Origin: an uncultured Acholeplasmataceae bacterium
GTDB lineage: Bacteria > Bacillota_I > Bacilli_A > Acholeplasmatales > UBA5453
Direction of reading: 5' to 3'
DNA length: 64,000 nt
NCBI GenBank assembly: GCA_964649865.1
Contig: CAZYSQ010000001.1
Coordinates: 13,849-77,848 of the forward strand
How positions within the stretch are numbered: position 1 is the first letter of the stretch; each line of letters opens with the position of its first letter. A program made the translations under genes and the position numbers. Below the pieces are notes generated by a model. That model was not told the DNA's origin. It saw only the letters and a program-made list of their open reading frames with translations, and searched no databases. Of this stretch, positions 51,183 through 53,016 are shown piece by piece.

Positions 51183-51368
51183 GGGAGGGTCGACAACTTC
51201 AGATGGGGTGCCCGAAGTGCAGGCTGGTCCTACTTCCACTGTTAATGGAGAGGTTGCAGGTTCGAGTCCTGTCATCGGTCTTCGACCGGTGTAGCTCAAC
51301 GGCAGAGCACTACGTTGGATCCGCCGACATCGTTGTCGGGCACCTCCTCTGAAGTCGAACCCCCTCCC
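51183..51368 (+). ncRNA. yrlA: YrlA-type bacterial Y RNA: long terminal stem plus a circularly permuted tRNA-like module
   Basis: Terminal stem GGGAGGG/CCCTCCC (51183-89 / 51362-68), TCGAC/GTCGA, CTTCAGA/TCTGAAG, GGTGCCCGA/TCGGGCACC (51207-15 / 51336-44). T-arm GCAGG-TTCGAGT-CCTGT (51256-72). Acceptor-like stem CATCGGTC-ttc-GACCGGTG (51273-91). D-arm GCTC-AACGGCA-GAGC (51294-308). Ends 23 nt before rsr. Confidence 0.72.
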
Positions 51369-51390
51369 CCAGTCGCCTGGGGTTGCAGGA

Positions 51391-53016
51391 ATGGCGAAGT
51401 TCAACAAGGCAGGGACCCGCGCCGCGGTACACAGCCCGGTCACGTCTGAGACGGTTCCGTCGGGCCGCACCTACGAAGGCGCCCCCGGCCACGCGCGGGA
51501 CACCAAGTCCGAGCTCTTCCTCCTCGCGGTCACGAACATGGTCGGCGAGAACCCCTTCTATGAGGGCGCCGACGAGCGCGACCAGCGCTTCACCGAACTC
51601 ACCATCGCTGTGGCGCACGAGGACCCCAACTGGACGTCCTCGTTCCTGGCGTGGCTGCGCGCCGAGGGAAACATGCGGTCCGCACCGCTCGTCGCCGCGG
51701 CGGAGCTCGTCCGCGCGAAGCCGGCCGGGATGCGGACCCGCGCCGTGGTGAACTCGGTGCTGCAGCGCGCGGACGAGCCGAGCGAGATCCTCGCGTACTG
51801 GCTGGGCAAGTACGGCAAGCCGATCCCGATCGCATTGAAGCGCGGCATCGCCGACGCGGTCGTACGGCTCTACAACGAGCGGTCCCTGCTGAAGTACGAC
51901 TCCTCCGACCGGGGCATCCGGTTCGGTGACGTCGTTGACCTCACGCAGCCCGCCTACCATCACCCCGAGGTCCGCGGGACGTGGCGGTACGACCTGTTCG
52001 GGCACGCCCTGGACCGTCGCCACGACCGCGACAAGCCCATCCCCGAGAGCCTTCGGACGCTGCGGGCTCGGGCCGAGCTGATGGCCCTGCCGGTCAAGCG
52101 ACGGCGGGAGATGCTGTCGCAGCCGGACGCTCTGCGGGATGCGGGCATCACGTGGGAGGCGCTCGCGGGGTGGCTTCAGGGGCCGATGGACGCCGCGGCG
52201 TGGGCCGCCGTAATCCCGTCCATGGGCGTGATGGCCCTGACACGGAACCTGCGGAACTTCGACCAGGCCGGCGTAGCCGATGAGGTCGCACAGCAGGTCA
52301 CCGCGAAGCTCACCGACCCCGGGGTGATCGCGCGGTCGCGGATGTTCCCGTTCCGGTTCTGGGCGGCCTACAAGCACACCGACTCGCTGCGGTGGGCGCA
52401 CGCCCTGGAGCAGGCCCTCAACCATTCGCTGGCCAACGTGCCCGCGCTCGACGGGCGGACCCTGATCCTCGTGGACCGTTCGCCGTCGATGTTCCCCGGC
52501 TACGTGTTCTCGACGCCGAACAAGTCCGACATTGCCTTGGCTGAGCAGGCCGCTGTGTTCGGTGCGGCCCTCGCGATCCGCGCGGCCGAGCCCACGCTGG
52601 TGGAGTTCGGTGGCGACTCCCACACGATCCCGGTCCCGAAGGGCGGCAGCGTCCTGCGGCTGATTGAGAAGTTCGGGCGGATCGACGGTACCGACATTCC
52701 CTCGGCTGTCCGCAAGCACCTCGACGGGCACGACCGGGTCGTAGTCGTGACCGACGAGCAGACCCGCGCCGGTTGGCTGCCGTCGAACATGTGGGGCCAC
52801 GGGGGTGCGCGTGAGACCCGCATCGACGACCTGGTTCCCAAGCACGTGCCGGTCTACATGTGGAACATGGCTGGGTACAAGCACGGAGCCTCGCCGTCCG
52901 GGCTGGGGAACCGGCACACGCTGGGTGGCCTGAGTGACTCCGCGTTCCGGCTGCTCTCGGTTCTGGAGGCGCGCACGTCTGCGCGGTGGCCGTGGGAGGA
53001 GAAGCCGACGGCCTGA
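51391..53016 (+). CDS. rsr: Ro60 orthologue Rsr (TROVE domain + vWA domain)
   Basis: TROVE-like N-terminus (ELFLLAVTNMVGENPFYEGADERDQRF...WLRAEGNMRSAPL). C-terminal vWA with MIDAS LILVDRSPSM and VVVVTDEQ. Confidence 0.85.
   Translation: MAKFNKAGTRAAVHSPVTSETVPSGRTYEGAPGHARDTKSELFLLAVTNMVGENPFYEGADERDQRFTELTIAVAHEDPNWTSSFLAWLRAEGNMRSAPLVAAAELVRAKPAGMRTRAVVNSVLQRADEPSEILAYWLGKYGKPIPIALKRGIADAVVRLYNERSLLKYDSSDRGIRFGDVVDLTQPAYHHPEVRGTWRYDLFGHALDRRHDRDKPIPESLRTLRARAELMALPVKRRREMLSQPDALRDAGITWEALAGWLQGPMDAAAWAAVIPSMGVMALTRNLRNFDQAGVADEVAQQVTAKLTDPGVIARSRMFPFRFWAAYKHTDSLRWAHALEQALNHSLANVPALDGRTLILVDRSPSMFPGYVFSTPNKSDIALAEQAAVFGAALAIRAAEPTLVEFGGDSHTIPVPKGGSVLRLIEKFGRIDGTDIPSAVRKHLDGHDRVVVVTDEQTRAGWLPSNMWGHGGARETRIDDLVPKHVPVYMWNMAGYKHGASPSGLGNRHTLGGLSDSAFRLLSVLEARTSARWPWEEKPTA

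What the first reader, a model, noticed from the sequence alone, without database searches (positions are those of the whole stretch)
51183..53016. Ro60 (Rsr) gene preceded by a YrlA-type Y RNA with a circularly permuted tRNA-like module, carried on mobile DNA
The 186 nt before the TROVE+vWA gene fold by eye into the two-module architecture described for bacterial Y RNAs. The first module is a long interrupted stem formed by the 5' and 3' ends, built from four helical segments totalling about 28 bp. The second is a tRNA mimic. The mimic has a textbook T-arm (GCAGG-TTCGAGT-CCTGT) and D-arm (GCTC-AACGGCA-GAGC). Their order is T-arm, 3' acceptor strand, 3-nt loop, 5' acceptor strand, D-arm. The acceptor stem is therefore loop-closed and the anticodon position opens into the Ro-binding stem, as reported for Salmonella YrlA. 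The pair sits between a tyrosine-integrase module and a phage lysis cassette rather than in a chromosomal rtc operon. A phage- or ICE-borne Ro/Y RNP in a Streptomyces-like host suggests an RNA quality-control or RNA-damage function that serves the element.
Basis: partly seen in the sequence, partly recalled or inferred. Interest (0 to 1): 0.8.

Follow-up and report, generated by a model that had tools for sequence, protein, structure and literature searches.

The report
Phage-borne Ro60 gene with Y RNA
A temperate phage or prophage of a Streptomyces-like host carries a Ro60 (Rsr) RNA-binding ring protein gene preceded by its partner tRNA-mimicking Y RNA; this pairing is already described for bacteria and phages, so it is a well-supported new example, not a new kind of system.

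Summary
Window 51183-51368 folds as described (MFE -89 kcal/mol, z = -4.9). It matches Rfam YrlA over the whole model (35.2 bits, E = 4.7e-6), which is below Rfam's cut-off of 69.

The same RNA lies upstream of the Ro60 gene, on the same strand, in 74 of 80 related viral contigs. All helices covary (96% of cells paired against 70% in shuffles). The tRNA tertiary 15:48 pair also covaries (G:C 75, A:U 30, other 7).

ORF 51391-53016 is a Ro60/Rsr. It hits TROVE, its vWA domain has an intact MIDAS motif, and the 13 best structural matches are all Ro60, led by Thermus phage phiLo Ro60.

The setting is mobile DNA: tyrosine integrase, endolysin, tail protein, serine integrase, DnaB.

- A fourth hairpin (51234-51250) that looks like a complete anticodon arm.
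- A second, smaller Y-like RNA (about 51109-51190).
- A T4-type Pnkp/RNA-ligase repair pair on the same element.

Phage Ro60/Y RNA modules have been published since 2014, and one was characterised biochemically in 2025. The verdict is a new member of a known kind, of modest interest.

The parts
51183..51368 (+). YrlA-type Y RNA at its full predicted extent, including the extended terminal stem (GGGAGGGUCGAC / GUCGAACCCCCUCCC and UUCAGA / UCUGAA). The true 5' and 3' ends are unknown.
   Evidence: MFE -89 kcal/mol, z = -4.9. The middle segment of the terminal stem covaries among relatives: CAGCA:UGCUG, UUCAGA:UCUGAA, GGCGCAGCC:GGCUGCGCC, AUAUGCA:UGCAU, CAAGC:GCUUG. The outer segment changes GGGAGG:CCUCCC to GGGAGC:GCUCCC in L069 and L042.
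51203..51343 (+). Conserved core of the Y RNA: Ro-binding helix plus the tRNA-like module.
   Evidence: Own covariance model R1 gives 135 bits, E = 3e-26 (the window sequence was in the seed). Rfam YrlA gives 35.2 bits, E = 4.7e-6 at 51209-51345. On the 150-match alignment (138 distinct rows), 96.1% of cells are paired, 34 of 37 pairs show changes on both sides, and the covariation score is 0.555 against 0.154 shuffled and 0.045-0.097 slid.
51205..51224 (+). 5' strand of the presumed Ro60-binding helix (GGGGUGCCCGAAGUGCAGGC). It contains the CGAA core of the published GNCGAA(N)G motif.
   Evidence: Pairs with 51323-51344. Helices 1-2 covary. The motif is described in PMC4201824.
51323..51344 (+). 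3' strand of the presumed Ro60-binding helix (GCCGACAUCGUUGUCGGGCACC).
51234..51250 (+). Fourth hairpin (the 'V' stem-loop of Chen et al. 2014). It has anticodon-arm geometry: a 5-bp stem UUCCA/UGGAG and a 7-nt loop CUGUUAA. A 5-nt variable-loop-like linker AGGUU (51251-51255) follows.
   Evidence: It appears as a 15-nt insertion relative to Rfam YrlA. The Rfam tRNA model aligns 51211-51280 at 25.5 bits, using this hairpin as the anticodon arm. Helix 4 covaries. The loop is 7 nt in 74 of 113 relatives, with Y32 in 68/74, U33 in 61/74, R37 in 71/74 and A38 in 70/74.
51256..51272 (+). T-arm mimic GCAGG-UUCGAGU-CCUGU.
   Evidence: Four of the five pairs covary. The loop is UUCGAAU in 50 relatives and UUCGAGU in 34.
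51273..51291 (+). Loop-closed acceptor-stem mimic. A 3'-type strand CAUCGGU, then CUUCG, then a 5'-type strand ACCGGUG; 7 bp plus one further C:G pair.
   Evidence: All 7 pairs show compensatory changes. A 7-bp stem is the feature that makes M. smegmatis YrlA an RNase P substrate (PMC4201824).
51292..51308 (+). UA linker (tRNA positions 8-9) and D-arm mimic GCUC-AACGGCA-GAGC.
   Evidence: A15 in the D loop pairs with U48 (51255). Across relatives the 15:48 pair is G:C 75, A:U 30, other 7.
51109..51190 (+). Second, smaller Y-like RNA (YrlB-like). It has a paralogous Ro-binding-type helix (UCUCCCGA...UCGGGAGG) closing a short stem-loop, and no tRNA-like module. Its 3' strand overlaps the first bases of the extended YrlA stem.
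   Evidence: R1 with filters off gives 10 bits, E = 0.02 on 651 nt. There is clear sequence homology to about 75-nt units that precede the main Y RNA in relatives, 20 of which are in the alignment (36-45 bits). The inner stem covaries (C:G to U:A). The outer helix is invariant. Confidence is moderate.
51367..51382 (+). Hairpin CCCCAG-UCGC-CUGGGG between the Y RNA and the start codon. Its 3' arm is the likely Shine-Dalgarno region of rsr.
   Evidence: Present in the MFE of 51100-51392. The equivalent CCCCUC...GAGGGG hairpin occurs in relatives. No terminator-like site lies between the Y RNA and rsr.
51391..53016 (+). rsr, the Ro60 orthologue: 541 aa, a TROVE HEAT-repeat ring plus a vWA domain with MIDAS residues D362-x-S364-x-S366, T434 and D455.
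   Evidence: Pfam TROVE 45.7 bits. PHROG 850 'RNA-binding protein' at E = 6.6e-46 over residues 20-535. PDB sequence hits 9KOP/9L5Y at E = 2e-30. AF2 model with pLDDT 82 and pTM 0.70. The top 13 Foldseek hits are all Ro60, TM 0.55-0.72. The MIDAS residues are invariant in alignment A5.
49551..50570 (+). Tyrosine integrase immediately upstream. It is followed by an overlapping 83-aa ORF (50567-50818) of unknown function.
   Evidence: Pfam Phage_integrase 80.3 bits; PHROG 1.

Best explanation
This is a Ro60/Y-RNA module of the actinobacterial YrlA type, carried by a temperate phage or prophage of a Streptomyces-like host.

Shown here:
- Gene 51391-53016 encodes a Ro60 ring protein (TROVE plus vWA/MIDAS).
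- The roughly 190 nt in front of it encode a conserved structured RNA. Its paired 5' and 3' ends carry the Ro-binding-type helix. Its centre is a circularly permuted tRNA mimic, in the order anticodon-like arm, variable loop, T arm, closed 7-bp acceptor stem, U8A9, D arm. The tRNA tertiary 15:48 pair is maintained.
- A second, smaller Y-like RNA lies just upstream.
- No terminator-like site separates the RNAs from rsr.

Inferred from the families involved:
- The RNAs and rsr are co-transcribed and the RNAs are processed out, as in M. smegmatis.
- Rsr binds the conserved helix.
- The tRNA-like module is modified by tRNA enzymes. Because its acceptor stem is 7 bp, it is probably cut by RNase P and given a CCA end.
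- The module serves as the handle that recruits an effector. That is host PNPase in the D. radiodurans and Thermus-phage systems, or an unknown protein that binds the tRNA elbow.
- The resulting RNP redirects or damps host 3'-5' RNA decay and structured-RNA quality control, to the benefit of the phage or the lysogen.
- It probably acts alongside the phage's own Pnkp/RNA-ligase repair pair.
For: RNA:
- Fold z = -4.9.
- Full-length Rfam YrlA alignment, E = 4.7e-6.
- Covariance model R1 finds 184 matches in 80 related viral loci plus the window. All are on the rsr strand and nearly all lie upstream of rsr.
- Of the 75 related loci in the hit alignment, 73 have at least one full-length unit.
- 96.1% of cells are paired against 70.4% in shuffles, and 34 of 37 pairs have changes on both sides.
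- The Levitt 15:48 pair covaries: G:C 75, A:U 30, other 7.
- The outer stem covaries.

Protein: TROVE; PHROG 850; 9KOP/9L5Y at E = 2e-30; the top 13 Foldseek hits are all Ro60; MIDAS residues are invariant.

Mobile context: integrases, endolysin, tail protein, DnaB, methyltransferase. Homologous 'Ro-like RNA binding protein' genes occur in cultured Gordonia and Streptomyces phages.

Mechanistic precedents:
- PMC4201824: YrlA lies near Ro60 in bacteria and phages. M. smegmatis YrlA is 5' of rsr, is bound by Rsr, and is cut by RNase P with CCA added.
- bioRxiv 10.1101/312249: YrlA is a permuted-tRNA L-shape.
- PMC12135203: phage Ro60 binds two upstream Y-like RNAs and host PNPase, and attenuates PNPase.
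Against: - There is no expression, binding or processing data for this locus.
- The Rfam score is half the gathering threshold. None of 19 related loci reaches it either.
- The published GNCGAA(N)G motif is not matched exactly. The window has GCCCGAAG, and most relatives have CGGUG in place of CGAAG.
- No promoter-like or terminator-like site was found, so the transcript ends are unknown.
- The 5' strand of the outermost stem is also the 3' strand of the upstream mini Y helix. The two pairings cannot both exist in one molecule.
- The effector and the biological role are pure inference.
- The structure alignment used for counting was fitted to the model, which inflates the paired percentages somewhat.
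Confidence: 0.85

Rival explanations
1. The RNA acts mainly in cis, as a structured leader that controls rsr translation. Alternative pairings among four segments would hide or expose the ribosome-binding site, possibly as feedback by Rsr. The segments are: (1) CCUCCCG, the 5' strand of the mini Y helix; (2) CGGGAGG; (3) the CCUCCC run after the Y RNA; (4) the G-rich Shine-Dalgarno.
For: No terminator-like site lies between the RNA and rsr. GGGAGG can pair with either flanking CCUCCC. In L038 the leader MFE forms 1:2 together with a hairpin that sequesters GAGGGG 10 nt before the start codon. The outer GGGAGG/CCUCCC is conserved in sequence while the neighbouring segment covaries freely.
Against: In the window the extended stem and the Shine-Dalgarno hairpin can form together, so the switch is not forced. 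Any CCUCC run will pair with any Shine-Dalgarno, so the complementarity may be incidental. Tandem arrays of 2-4 full units far from the start codon and the tRNA tertiary-pair covariation point to a trans-acting RNP RNA. This reading is compatible with the main explanation and does not exclude it.
Confidence: 0.07
2. The tRNA-like stretch is a tRNA remnant or attachment site (attP, attL or attR) of the adjacent tyrosine integrase, or a decayed tandem tRNA pair. On this reading it is not a functional RNA.
For: It lies 365-800 nt downstream of a tyrosine integrase. The segment from the anticodon loop to the 3' acceptor resembles a tRNA 3' half, which is the usual att core (tRNA model 25.5 bits). 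It has 80-83% BLAST matches to features annotated as phage tRNA genes.
Against: Only 3 of 80 related loci have an integrase within 3 kb, yet nearly all keep the RNA directly upstream of rsr. The D arm, closed acceptor stem and Ro helix covary, which a remnant would not do. The window holds no tRNA gene and no att-like direct repeat. The 24-nt T-arm/acceptor string occurs in only one of 185,579 species genomes, in a tRNA-Leu of an unrelated gammaproteobacterium. The inspected 'tRNA' match, Magritte tRNA-Arg(tct), is a mis-called Y RNA, as is VanLee's tRNA-Arg(tct) upstream of its Ro gene.
Confidence: 0.03
3. The RNA is a two-piece tRNA surrogate. [quoted passage not shown] It could then act as a decoy, sensor or substrate for tRNA-targeting host nucleases or tRNA enzymes, instead of serving as a PNPase tether.
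For: It has the complete tRNA arm set, including an anticodon-type arm with U33, R37 and A38. It has a 7-bp acceptor stem like the RNase P-cleaved M. smegmatis YrlA. The same element carries Pnkp plus a T4-type RNA ligase, and in relatives these genes sit next to rsr. tRNA finders call such units tRNA-Arg(tct).
Against: There is no experimental support. A helix inserted at the 26/27 junction has no precedent in functional tRNAs. 39 of 113 relatives lack the 7-nt loop, and some form the anticodon-position stem across the junction instead. Loop triplets are dominated by GCU and GUU without an obvious link to known nuclease targets.
Confidence: 0.05

Closest known systems
Mycobacterium smegmatis YrlA/YrlB-Rsr locus and the mycobacteriophage YrlA RNAs (Chen et al. 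2014, PMC4201824)
   Same: The Y RNAs lie upstream of rsr on the same strand, and there are two of them (one tRNA-like, one smaller). The order is V, T, closed acceptor stem, D. The acceptor stem is 7 bp. U8A9 and Levitt-pair conservation are present. The host lineage is actinobacterial and carriage is by phage.
   Different: Here the smaller RNA precedes the tRNA-like one; in M. smegmatis YrlB lies between YrlA and rsr. The V hairpin has full anticodon-arm geometry. The CGAA motif has an extra base. Nothing is verified experimentally.
Salmonella Typhimurium YrlA (Rfam RF02553; structure 6CU1, bioRxiv 10.1101/312249)
   Same: It aligns over the whole Rfam model. It is a permuted tRNA mimic with T, closed acceptor and D arms, with a Ro-binding helix formed by the two ends.
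   Different: The score is only 35.2 bits against a cut-off of 69. Salmonella YrlA lies downstream of rsr in the RtcR-controlled rsr-yrlBA-rtcBA operon, has a 6-bp acceptor stem, and lacks the hairpin found here; its anticodon-position stem leads straight to the Ro module.
Thermus phage phiLo Ro60 with Yrl1/Yrl2 (Hu et al. 2025, PMC12135203; PDB 9KOP, 9L5Y)
   Same: It is the closest solved structure to this protein (E = 2e-30; TM 0.63/0.72). It is phage-encoded, with two Y-like RNAs in the non-coding region upstream of the Ro60 gene.
   Different: Identity is about 25%. A tRNA-like module is not mentioned for Yrl1/Yrl2 in that paper. The host is a thermophile, and the phage is not described as sharing this integrase-adjacent setting.
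'Ro-like RNA binding protein' genes of cultured Gordonia and Streptomyces phages (VanLee, Trax, Neville, BRock, JustBecause)
   Same: The genes are homologous (64.7-73.2% nucleotide identity over parts). VanLee has the same YrlA-like RNA upstream (R1 116 bits). JustBecause has an RNA ligase adjacent.
   Different: No close genome relative exists: megablast of 49 kb of the window finds essentially nothing. In those records the Y RNA is unannotated or mis-annotated as tRNA-Arg.

Membership tests
YrlA-type bacterial Y RNA | Encoded within about 4 kb of a Ro60 orthologue, on the same strand | tested here: met
   The RNA ends 22 nt before the rsr start codon on the + strand. The same holds in 73 related loci.
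YrlA-type bacterial Y RNA | Conserved T-arm and D-arm mimics, with the T arm 5' of the D arm and a closed stem-loop between them (circularly permuted tRNA) | tested here: met
   T arm 51256-51272, acceptor-like stem 51273-51291, D arm 51294-51308. All three helices are supported by covariation.
YrlA-type bacterial Y RNA | tRNA tertiary-interaction nucleotides: U8A9 linker, G18G19, T-loop UUCGA, and a covarying Levitt 15:48 pair | tested here: met
   The window has UA, D loop AACGGCA, T loop UUCGAGU and A15:U48. In relatives the 15:48 pair is G:C 75, A:U 30, other 7 of 112.
YrlA-type bacterial Y RNA | 5' GNCGAA(N0-1)G motif within a helix formed by the 5' and 3' ends (presumed Ro60 site) | tested here: inconclusive
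   The helix is present and covaries. The sequence is GCCCGAAG, one base more than the motif. Most relatives have CCCGGUG instead.
YrlA-type bacterial Y RNA | Score at or above the Rfam RF02553 gathering threshold (69 bits) | tested here: not met
   35.2 bits, E = 4.7e-6, full-length alignment. There is no hit in gathering mode in the window or in 19 related loci. This is a curated score cut-off and not a biological feature; the Rfam model appears not to cover this clade.
YrlA-type bacterial Y RNA | Stable transcript bound by Rsr in vivo | not testable with these tools
   Needs a Northern blot or RNA-seq and Rsr immunoprecipitation.
Ro60 / Rsr protein | TROVE (HEAT-repeat ring) domain above the Pfam threshold | tested here: met
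   PF05731 at 45.7 bits against 23. PHROG 850 over residues 20-535.
Ro60 / Rsr protein | C-terminal vWA domain with a MIDAS motif closing the ring | tested here: met
   There is no Pfam vWA hit. The alignment to 9KOP spans the vWFA domain, with VDRSPSM aligned to VDVSGSM. The model has an alpha/beta domain at residues 353-526. D362, S364, S366, T434 and D455 are invariant. vWA folds appear among the weaker Foldseek hits.
Ro60 / Rsr protein | Overall fold matching solved Ro60 structures | tested here: met
   The top 13 Foldseek hits are Ro60 from phage phiLo, Xenopus, human and D. radiodurans. TM scores are 0.55-0.72 and E-values run from 6e-16 to 3e-10.
Temperate phage / prophage | Integrase together with lysis, tail and replication genes on one contiguous stretch | tested here: met
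   Tyrosine integrase, serine integrase, endolysin (PHROG 17214/29733), minor tail / Prophage_tail, DnaB, exonuclease and methyltransferase. The ends of the element and its integration state were not determined.

The most novel reading that the evidence does not exclude
In this actinophage clade the Y RNA keeps all four tRNA arms, including an anticodon-type arm. With its 7-bp acceptor stem it would be cut by RNase P and CCA-tailed into a two-piece, Ro60-tethered tRNA look-alike. That molecule, together with the phage's Pnkp/RNA-ligase pair, would form a counter-defence or damage-sensing system aimed at host tRNA-targeting nucleases. In parallel, the mini-Y / YrlA / Shine-Dalgarno pairings could give Rsr-dependent autoregulation.
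Probability: 0.1. Interest if true: 0.65.

Novelty: new member of a known kind. Interest (0 to 1): 0.3.

Why it matters
The locus adds a clean, covariation-supported example of a phage-borne Ro60/Y-RNA module in a Streptomyces-type temperate element. The role of Ro RNPs in phage biology is still open; the only biochemical study, on Thermus phage phiLo in 2025, suggests attenuation of host PNPase.

Three by-products have practical value:
- This large actinophage clade (at least 74 viral contigs here) is invisible to Rfam's YrlA threshold.
- Its members are sometimes mis-annotated as tRNA-Arg in GenBank phage records.
- The retained anticodon-type arm fits the published dimeric-tRNA origin model for YrlA.

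The co-occurrence with Pnkp and RNA ligase suggests a testable link between Ro RNPs and phage RNA repair.

Tried and rejected
- Rfam in gathering mode on the whole window gave no hits at all. Only the permissive mode shows YrlA.
- ARAGORN found no tRNA or tmRNA in the window.
- Megablast of 40000-64000 and 1-25000 against 50,697 phage records found no relative. The only hits were two 72-nt methyltransferase matches.
- PADLOC gave no defence-system hit for Rsr. Neighbours gave only weak HerA/HTH hits.
- The promoter and terminator consensus scan of 50700-53400 found nothing, so transcript boundaries could not be set.
- The direct-repeat search for att sites across the window found nothing convincing.
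- An exact 24-mer search of 185,579 species genomes for the T-arm/acceptor string returned only an unrelated gammaproteobacterial tRNA-Leu. This gives no support for an attB and no named host genome.
- The supplementary tables of Chen et al. 2014 are not held. I therefore could not check which phages, or how many Y RNAs per phage, were already listed.
- RNAalifold on the mini Y RNA gave little covariation, because its outer helix is invariant. That RNA rests on conservation and paralogy.
- I did not build a separate covariance model for the mini Y RNA.
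Full report
**1. The observation**

- T arm GCAGG-UUCGAGU-CCUGU at 51256-51272.
- Loop-closed stem CAUCGGU(C)-UUC-(G)ACCGGUG at 51273-51291.
- UA linker at 51292-51293.
- D arm GCUC-AACGGCA-GAGC at 51294-51308.
- The two ends of the 186-nt stretch pair with each other.

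RNAfold reproduces this architecture at -89 kcal/mol. Dinucleotide shuffles average -66.2 (sd 4.7), giving z = -4.9, and none of 200 shuffles folds as well. The default Rfam scan of the whole window reports nothing. In E-value mode the YrlA model RF02553 aligns from its first to its last position at 51209-51345. The score is 35.2 bits (E = 4.7e-6), about half the curated cut-off of 69. ARAGORN calls no tRNA anywhere in the window.

**2. The protein**

ORF 51391-53016 (541 aa, GC3 = 0.91) is a Ro60/Rsr orthologue.
- It hits Pfam TROVE at 45.7 bits against a cut-off of 23.
- It hits PHROG 850 'RNA-binding protein' over residues 20-535 at E = 6.6e-46.
- By sequence, the only solved relatives are 9KOP and 9L5Y (E = 2e-30). 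Both are Ro60 of Thermus phage phiLo. The alignment runs through the vWA domain and its DxSxS motif.
- An AlphaFold model has mean pLDDT 82 and pTM 0.70.
- The 13 best Foldseek hits are all Ro60 structures: phage phiLo, Xenopus, human and Deinococcus Rsr, with TM 0.55-0.72.
- MIDAS residues D362, S364, S366, T434 and D455 are invariant among 34 homologues.

Pfam does not itself call a vWA domain.

**3. Relatives and covariation**

A protein search finds 6,770 homologues at E <= 1e-10. Every named hit among the best 120 is from Streptomyces or Kitasatospora. A scan of IMG/VR returned 80 viral loci that encode a relative. BLASTN of the 186-nt RNA already finds a homologous stretch just upstream of the gene in many of them.

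An alignment of 25 upstream regions gave an RNAalifold consensus with 15 compensated pairs. I built a covariance model (R1: 142 positions, 37 pairs) from 17 sequences, the window included. Against the window plus the 80 loci (658 kb, both strands) it found 184 matches. All are on the strand of rsr and nearly all lie upstream of it. Of the 75 loci in the hit alignment, 73 have at least one full-length unit and 32 have two to four.

On the 150-match alignment (138 distinct rows):

| Measure | Observed | Column shuffles | 3' partners slid 1-3 columns |
|---|---|---|---|
| Cells forming a standard pair | 96.1% | 70.4% | 37-50% |
| Covariation score | 0.555 | 0.154 | 0.045-0.097 |

In addition, 34 of 37 pairs show changes on both sides. 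The alignment was fitted to the model, which flatters these numbers. Even so, the margin is large, and the closed acceptor-like stem changes at all seven pairs.

Independently of secondary structure, the tRNA tertiary Levitt pair covaries. This pair joins D-loop position 15 to the base just before the T stem. It is G:C in 75 units, A:U in 30 and anything else in 7. This is the signature published for YrlA (PMC4201824; bioRxiv 10.1101/312249).

The part of the terminal stem outside the model is also real. Its middle segment takes different complementary sequences in different lineages:
- UUCAGA:UCUGAA in the window
- CAGCA:UGCUG
- GGCGCAGCC:GGCUGCGCC
- AUAUGCA:UGCAU
- CAAGC:GCUUG

The outer GGGAGG:CCUCCC segment becomes GGGAGC:GCUCCC in two loci.

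**4.

(a) A fourth hairpin. Between the closing stem and the T arm lies UUCCA-CUGUUAA-UGGAG (51234-51250), followed by five bases, AGGUU. It shows up as a 15-nt insertion relative to the Rfam model. It corresponds to the 'V' stem-loop of Chen et al..

In this clade the hairpin has the geometry of an anticodon arm:
- The stem has five pairs.
- The loop is 7 nt in 74 of 113 units.
- Loop positions are pyrimidine-32 in 68/74, U33 in 61/74, purine-37 in 71/74 and A38 in 70/74.
- A 4-5-nt variable loop follows in 108 of 113 units.

The RNA is thus a whole tRNA permuted at the 26/27 junction, and the multiloop is a five-way junction. The Rfam tRNA model scores 25.5 bits on 51211-51280 using this arm. 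ARAGORN-type annotation has called equivalent units 'tRNA-Arg(tct)' in Gordonia phage VanLee and Microbacterium phage Magritte. There R1 scores 116 and 69 bits over the full Y RNA, and in VanLee the unit lies upstream of the Ro-like gene. The retained arm fits the published idea that YrlA arose from a dimeric tRNA transcript.

(b) A second, smaller RNA. A smaller Y-like RNA lies at about 51109-51190. It has a paralogous helix, UCUCCCGA...UCGGGAGG, in place of GUGCCCGA...UCGGGCAC, and it closes a short stem-loop. Homologous units of about 75 nt precede the main RNA in relatives, 20 of which are in the alignment (36-45 bits).
- In the window the MFE favours the extended YrlA stem.
- In L038 the MFE favours the mini-Y helix plus a hairpin over the Shine-Dalgarno.

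I record a possible translational switch as an idea only.

**5. Setting**

The window is mobile DNA.

| Coordinates (strand) | Gene or feature |
|---|---|
| 2289-3851 (-) | DNA methyltransferase |
| 6356-7720 (-) | DnaB-like helicase |
| 17113-18258 (-) | Exonuclease |
| 24314-26182 (-) | Serine integrase |
| 49551-50570 (+) | Tyrosine integrase |
| 53258-53713 (-) | GntR regulator |
| 53895-54095 (-) | DUF397 protein |
| 54120-55031 (-) | XRE/DUF5753 regulator |
| 55157-55540 (+) | HATPase_c_2 protein |
| 56816-57529 (+) | Phd/YefM antitoxin |
| 59308-60198 (-) | Endolysin |
| 61594-62940 (-) | Tail protein |

No rtc genes were seen among the flanking genes scanned. No close sequenced phage exists. 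'Ro-like RNA binding protein' genes of Gordonia and Streptomyces phages match at 64.7-73.2% nucleotide identity. The ends of the element and its integration state were not resolved.

The same element carries a Pnkp (kinase plus HAD phosphatase, 10357-11265) and a T4 Rnl1-type RNA ligase (11262-12587). In several relatives such genes sit next to rsr.

**6. Rival: att site or tRNA remnant**

This rival is rejected.
- Only 3 of 80 loci have an integrase within 3 kb, yet nearly all keep the RNA.
- The non-tRNA-order parts covary.
- There are no att-like repeats and no intact tRNA in the window.
- The 24-nt T-arm/acceptor string occurs in only one of 185,579 species genomes, in an unrelated tRNA-Leu.

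**7. Mechanism**

Shown here: a Ro60 protein gene and, in front of it, a conserved structured RNA. The RNA has a Ro-type terminal helix and a tRNA-mimic centre.

Inferred from M. smegmatis, Salmonella, and D. radiodurans and phage phiLo:
- The RNAs are co-transcribed with rsr and processed out.
- Rsr binds the terminal helix.
- tRNA enzymes modify the module.
- The module recruits an effector. PNPase is the only one demonstrated, and in the phage case it is attenuated.

The integrase-adjacent position among regulator and toxin-antitoxin-type genes would suit expression from the prophage. That point is conjecture.

**8. Comparison and novelty**

YrlA RNAs beside Ro60 were reported in 254 bacterial species and 22 phages, including actinobacteria and mycobacteriophages. 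Their description as circularly permuted tRNAs with closed acceptor stems is explicit in the literature. A phage Ro60 with two upstream Y-like RNAs has been characterised structurally and biochemically.

This locus is therefore a new member of a known kind. Its modest extras are the anticodon-type arm, the overlapping mini Y RNA, the Rfam blind spot, the tRNA mis-annotations, and the link to Pnkp/Rnl.

Scores: interest 0.3. Confidence in the identification is 0.85. Confidence in the detailed mechanism is much lower, because it rests entirely on precedent.

Noticed in passing
window 10357-11265 (-) and 11262-12587 (-): Adjacent Pnkp (AAA_33 kinase plus HAD_PNKP phosphatase) and T4 Rnl1-family RNA ligase genes. 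This is the classic phage tRNA-repair pair, on the same element as the Ro60/Y RNA module. In relatives, Pnk or Rnl genes sit within 3 kb of rsr (L076, L078, L033). In Streptomyces phage JustBecause an RNA ligase is directly upstream of the Ro-like gene.
   Followed up: partly
window 51109-51190 (+): A second, smaller Y-like RNA with a Ro-type helix but no tRNA module. It is conserved in relatives (about 75-nt units in 20 loci of the alignment). Its 3' strand UCGGGAGG is also the 5' strand of the extended YrlA stem. In relatives the downstream CCUCCC run can alternatively pair with the rsr Shine-Dalgarno, so this may be a translational switch.
   Followed up: partly
L085 1781-1923 (Gordonia phage VanLee NC_073474, tRNA-Arg(tct) at 65454-65525); L082 270-406 (Microbacterium phage Magritte OR553905, tRNA-Arg(tct) at 76028-76104): Features annotated in GenBank as tRNA-Arg(tct) are the 5' parts of YrlA-like Y RNAs (R1 116 and 69 bits). 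The anticodon-arm-like hairpin fools tRNA finders. In VanLee it is the only feature annotated as a tRNA in the 5.7-kb stretch examined, and it lies 226 nt upstream of the Ro-like gene.
   Followed up: yes
L017, L020, L030, L041, L043, L071, L076 and others, 300-2500 nt upstream of rsr: There are tandem arrays of two to four full-length YrlA-like units, plus shorter units, upstream of rsr in 32 of 75 related viral loci. A conserved ACAACUUCA linker precedes many units.
   Followed up: partly
L059, L079, L084 (Streptomyces phage BRock): In some phages the Ro60 gene is embedded in a large tRNA gene array (13-16 tRNAs within 7.6 kb). This is consistent with a tRNA-array origin of Y RNAs.
   Followed up: no
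19 related loci and the window: None of these Y RNAs reaches the Rfam YrlA gathering score, so standard Rfam-based annotation does not see the whole actinophage clade.
   Followed up: yes
window 8672-8873: Five copies of a 24-nt GGGGGGAACCTGTTCCCCCCTCTG-like repeat, with start-to-start spacing of 21-66 nt, about 1 kb from the DnaB-like helicase gene. They are iteron-like and may mark a replication origin.
   Followed up: no
window 24314-26182 (-) and 49551-50570 (+): Two integrases of different families lie in one 64-kb stretch: a large serine recombinase and a tyrosine integrase. A HerA/FtsK-like ATPase ORF (45337-47388) lies between them. This may be a composite or nested mobile element.
   Followed up: no
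window 53258-55540: Directly downstream of rsr lie a GntR regulator and a WhiJ-type triad typical of Streptomyces: an XRE/DUF5753 regulator, a DUF397 protein and a HATPase_c_2 anti-sigma-like protein. A Phd/YefM antitoxin-domain ORF follows at 56816-57529.
   Followed up: no
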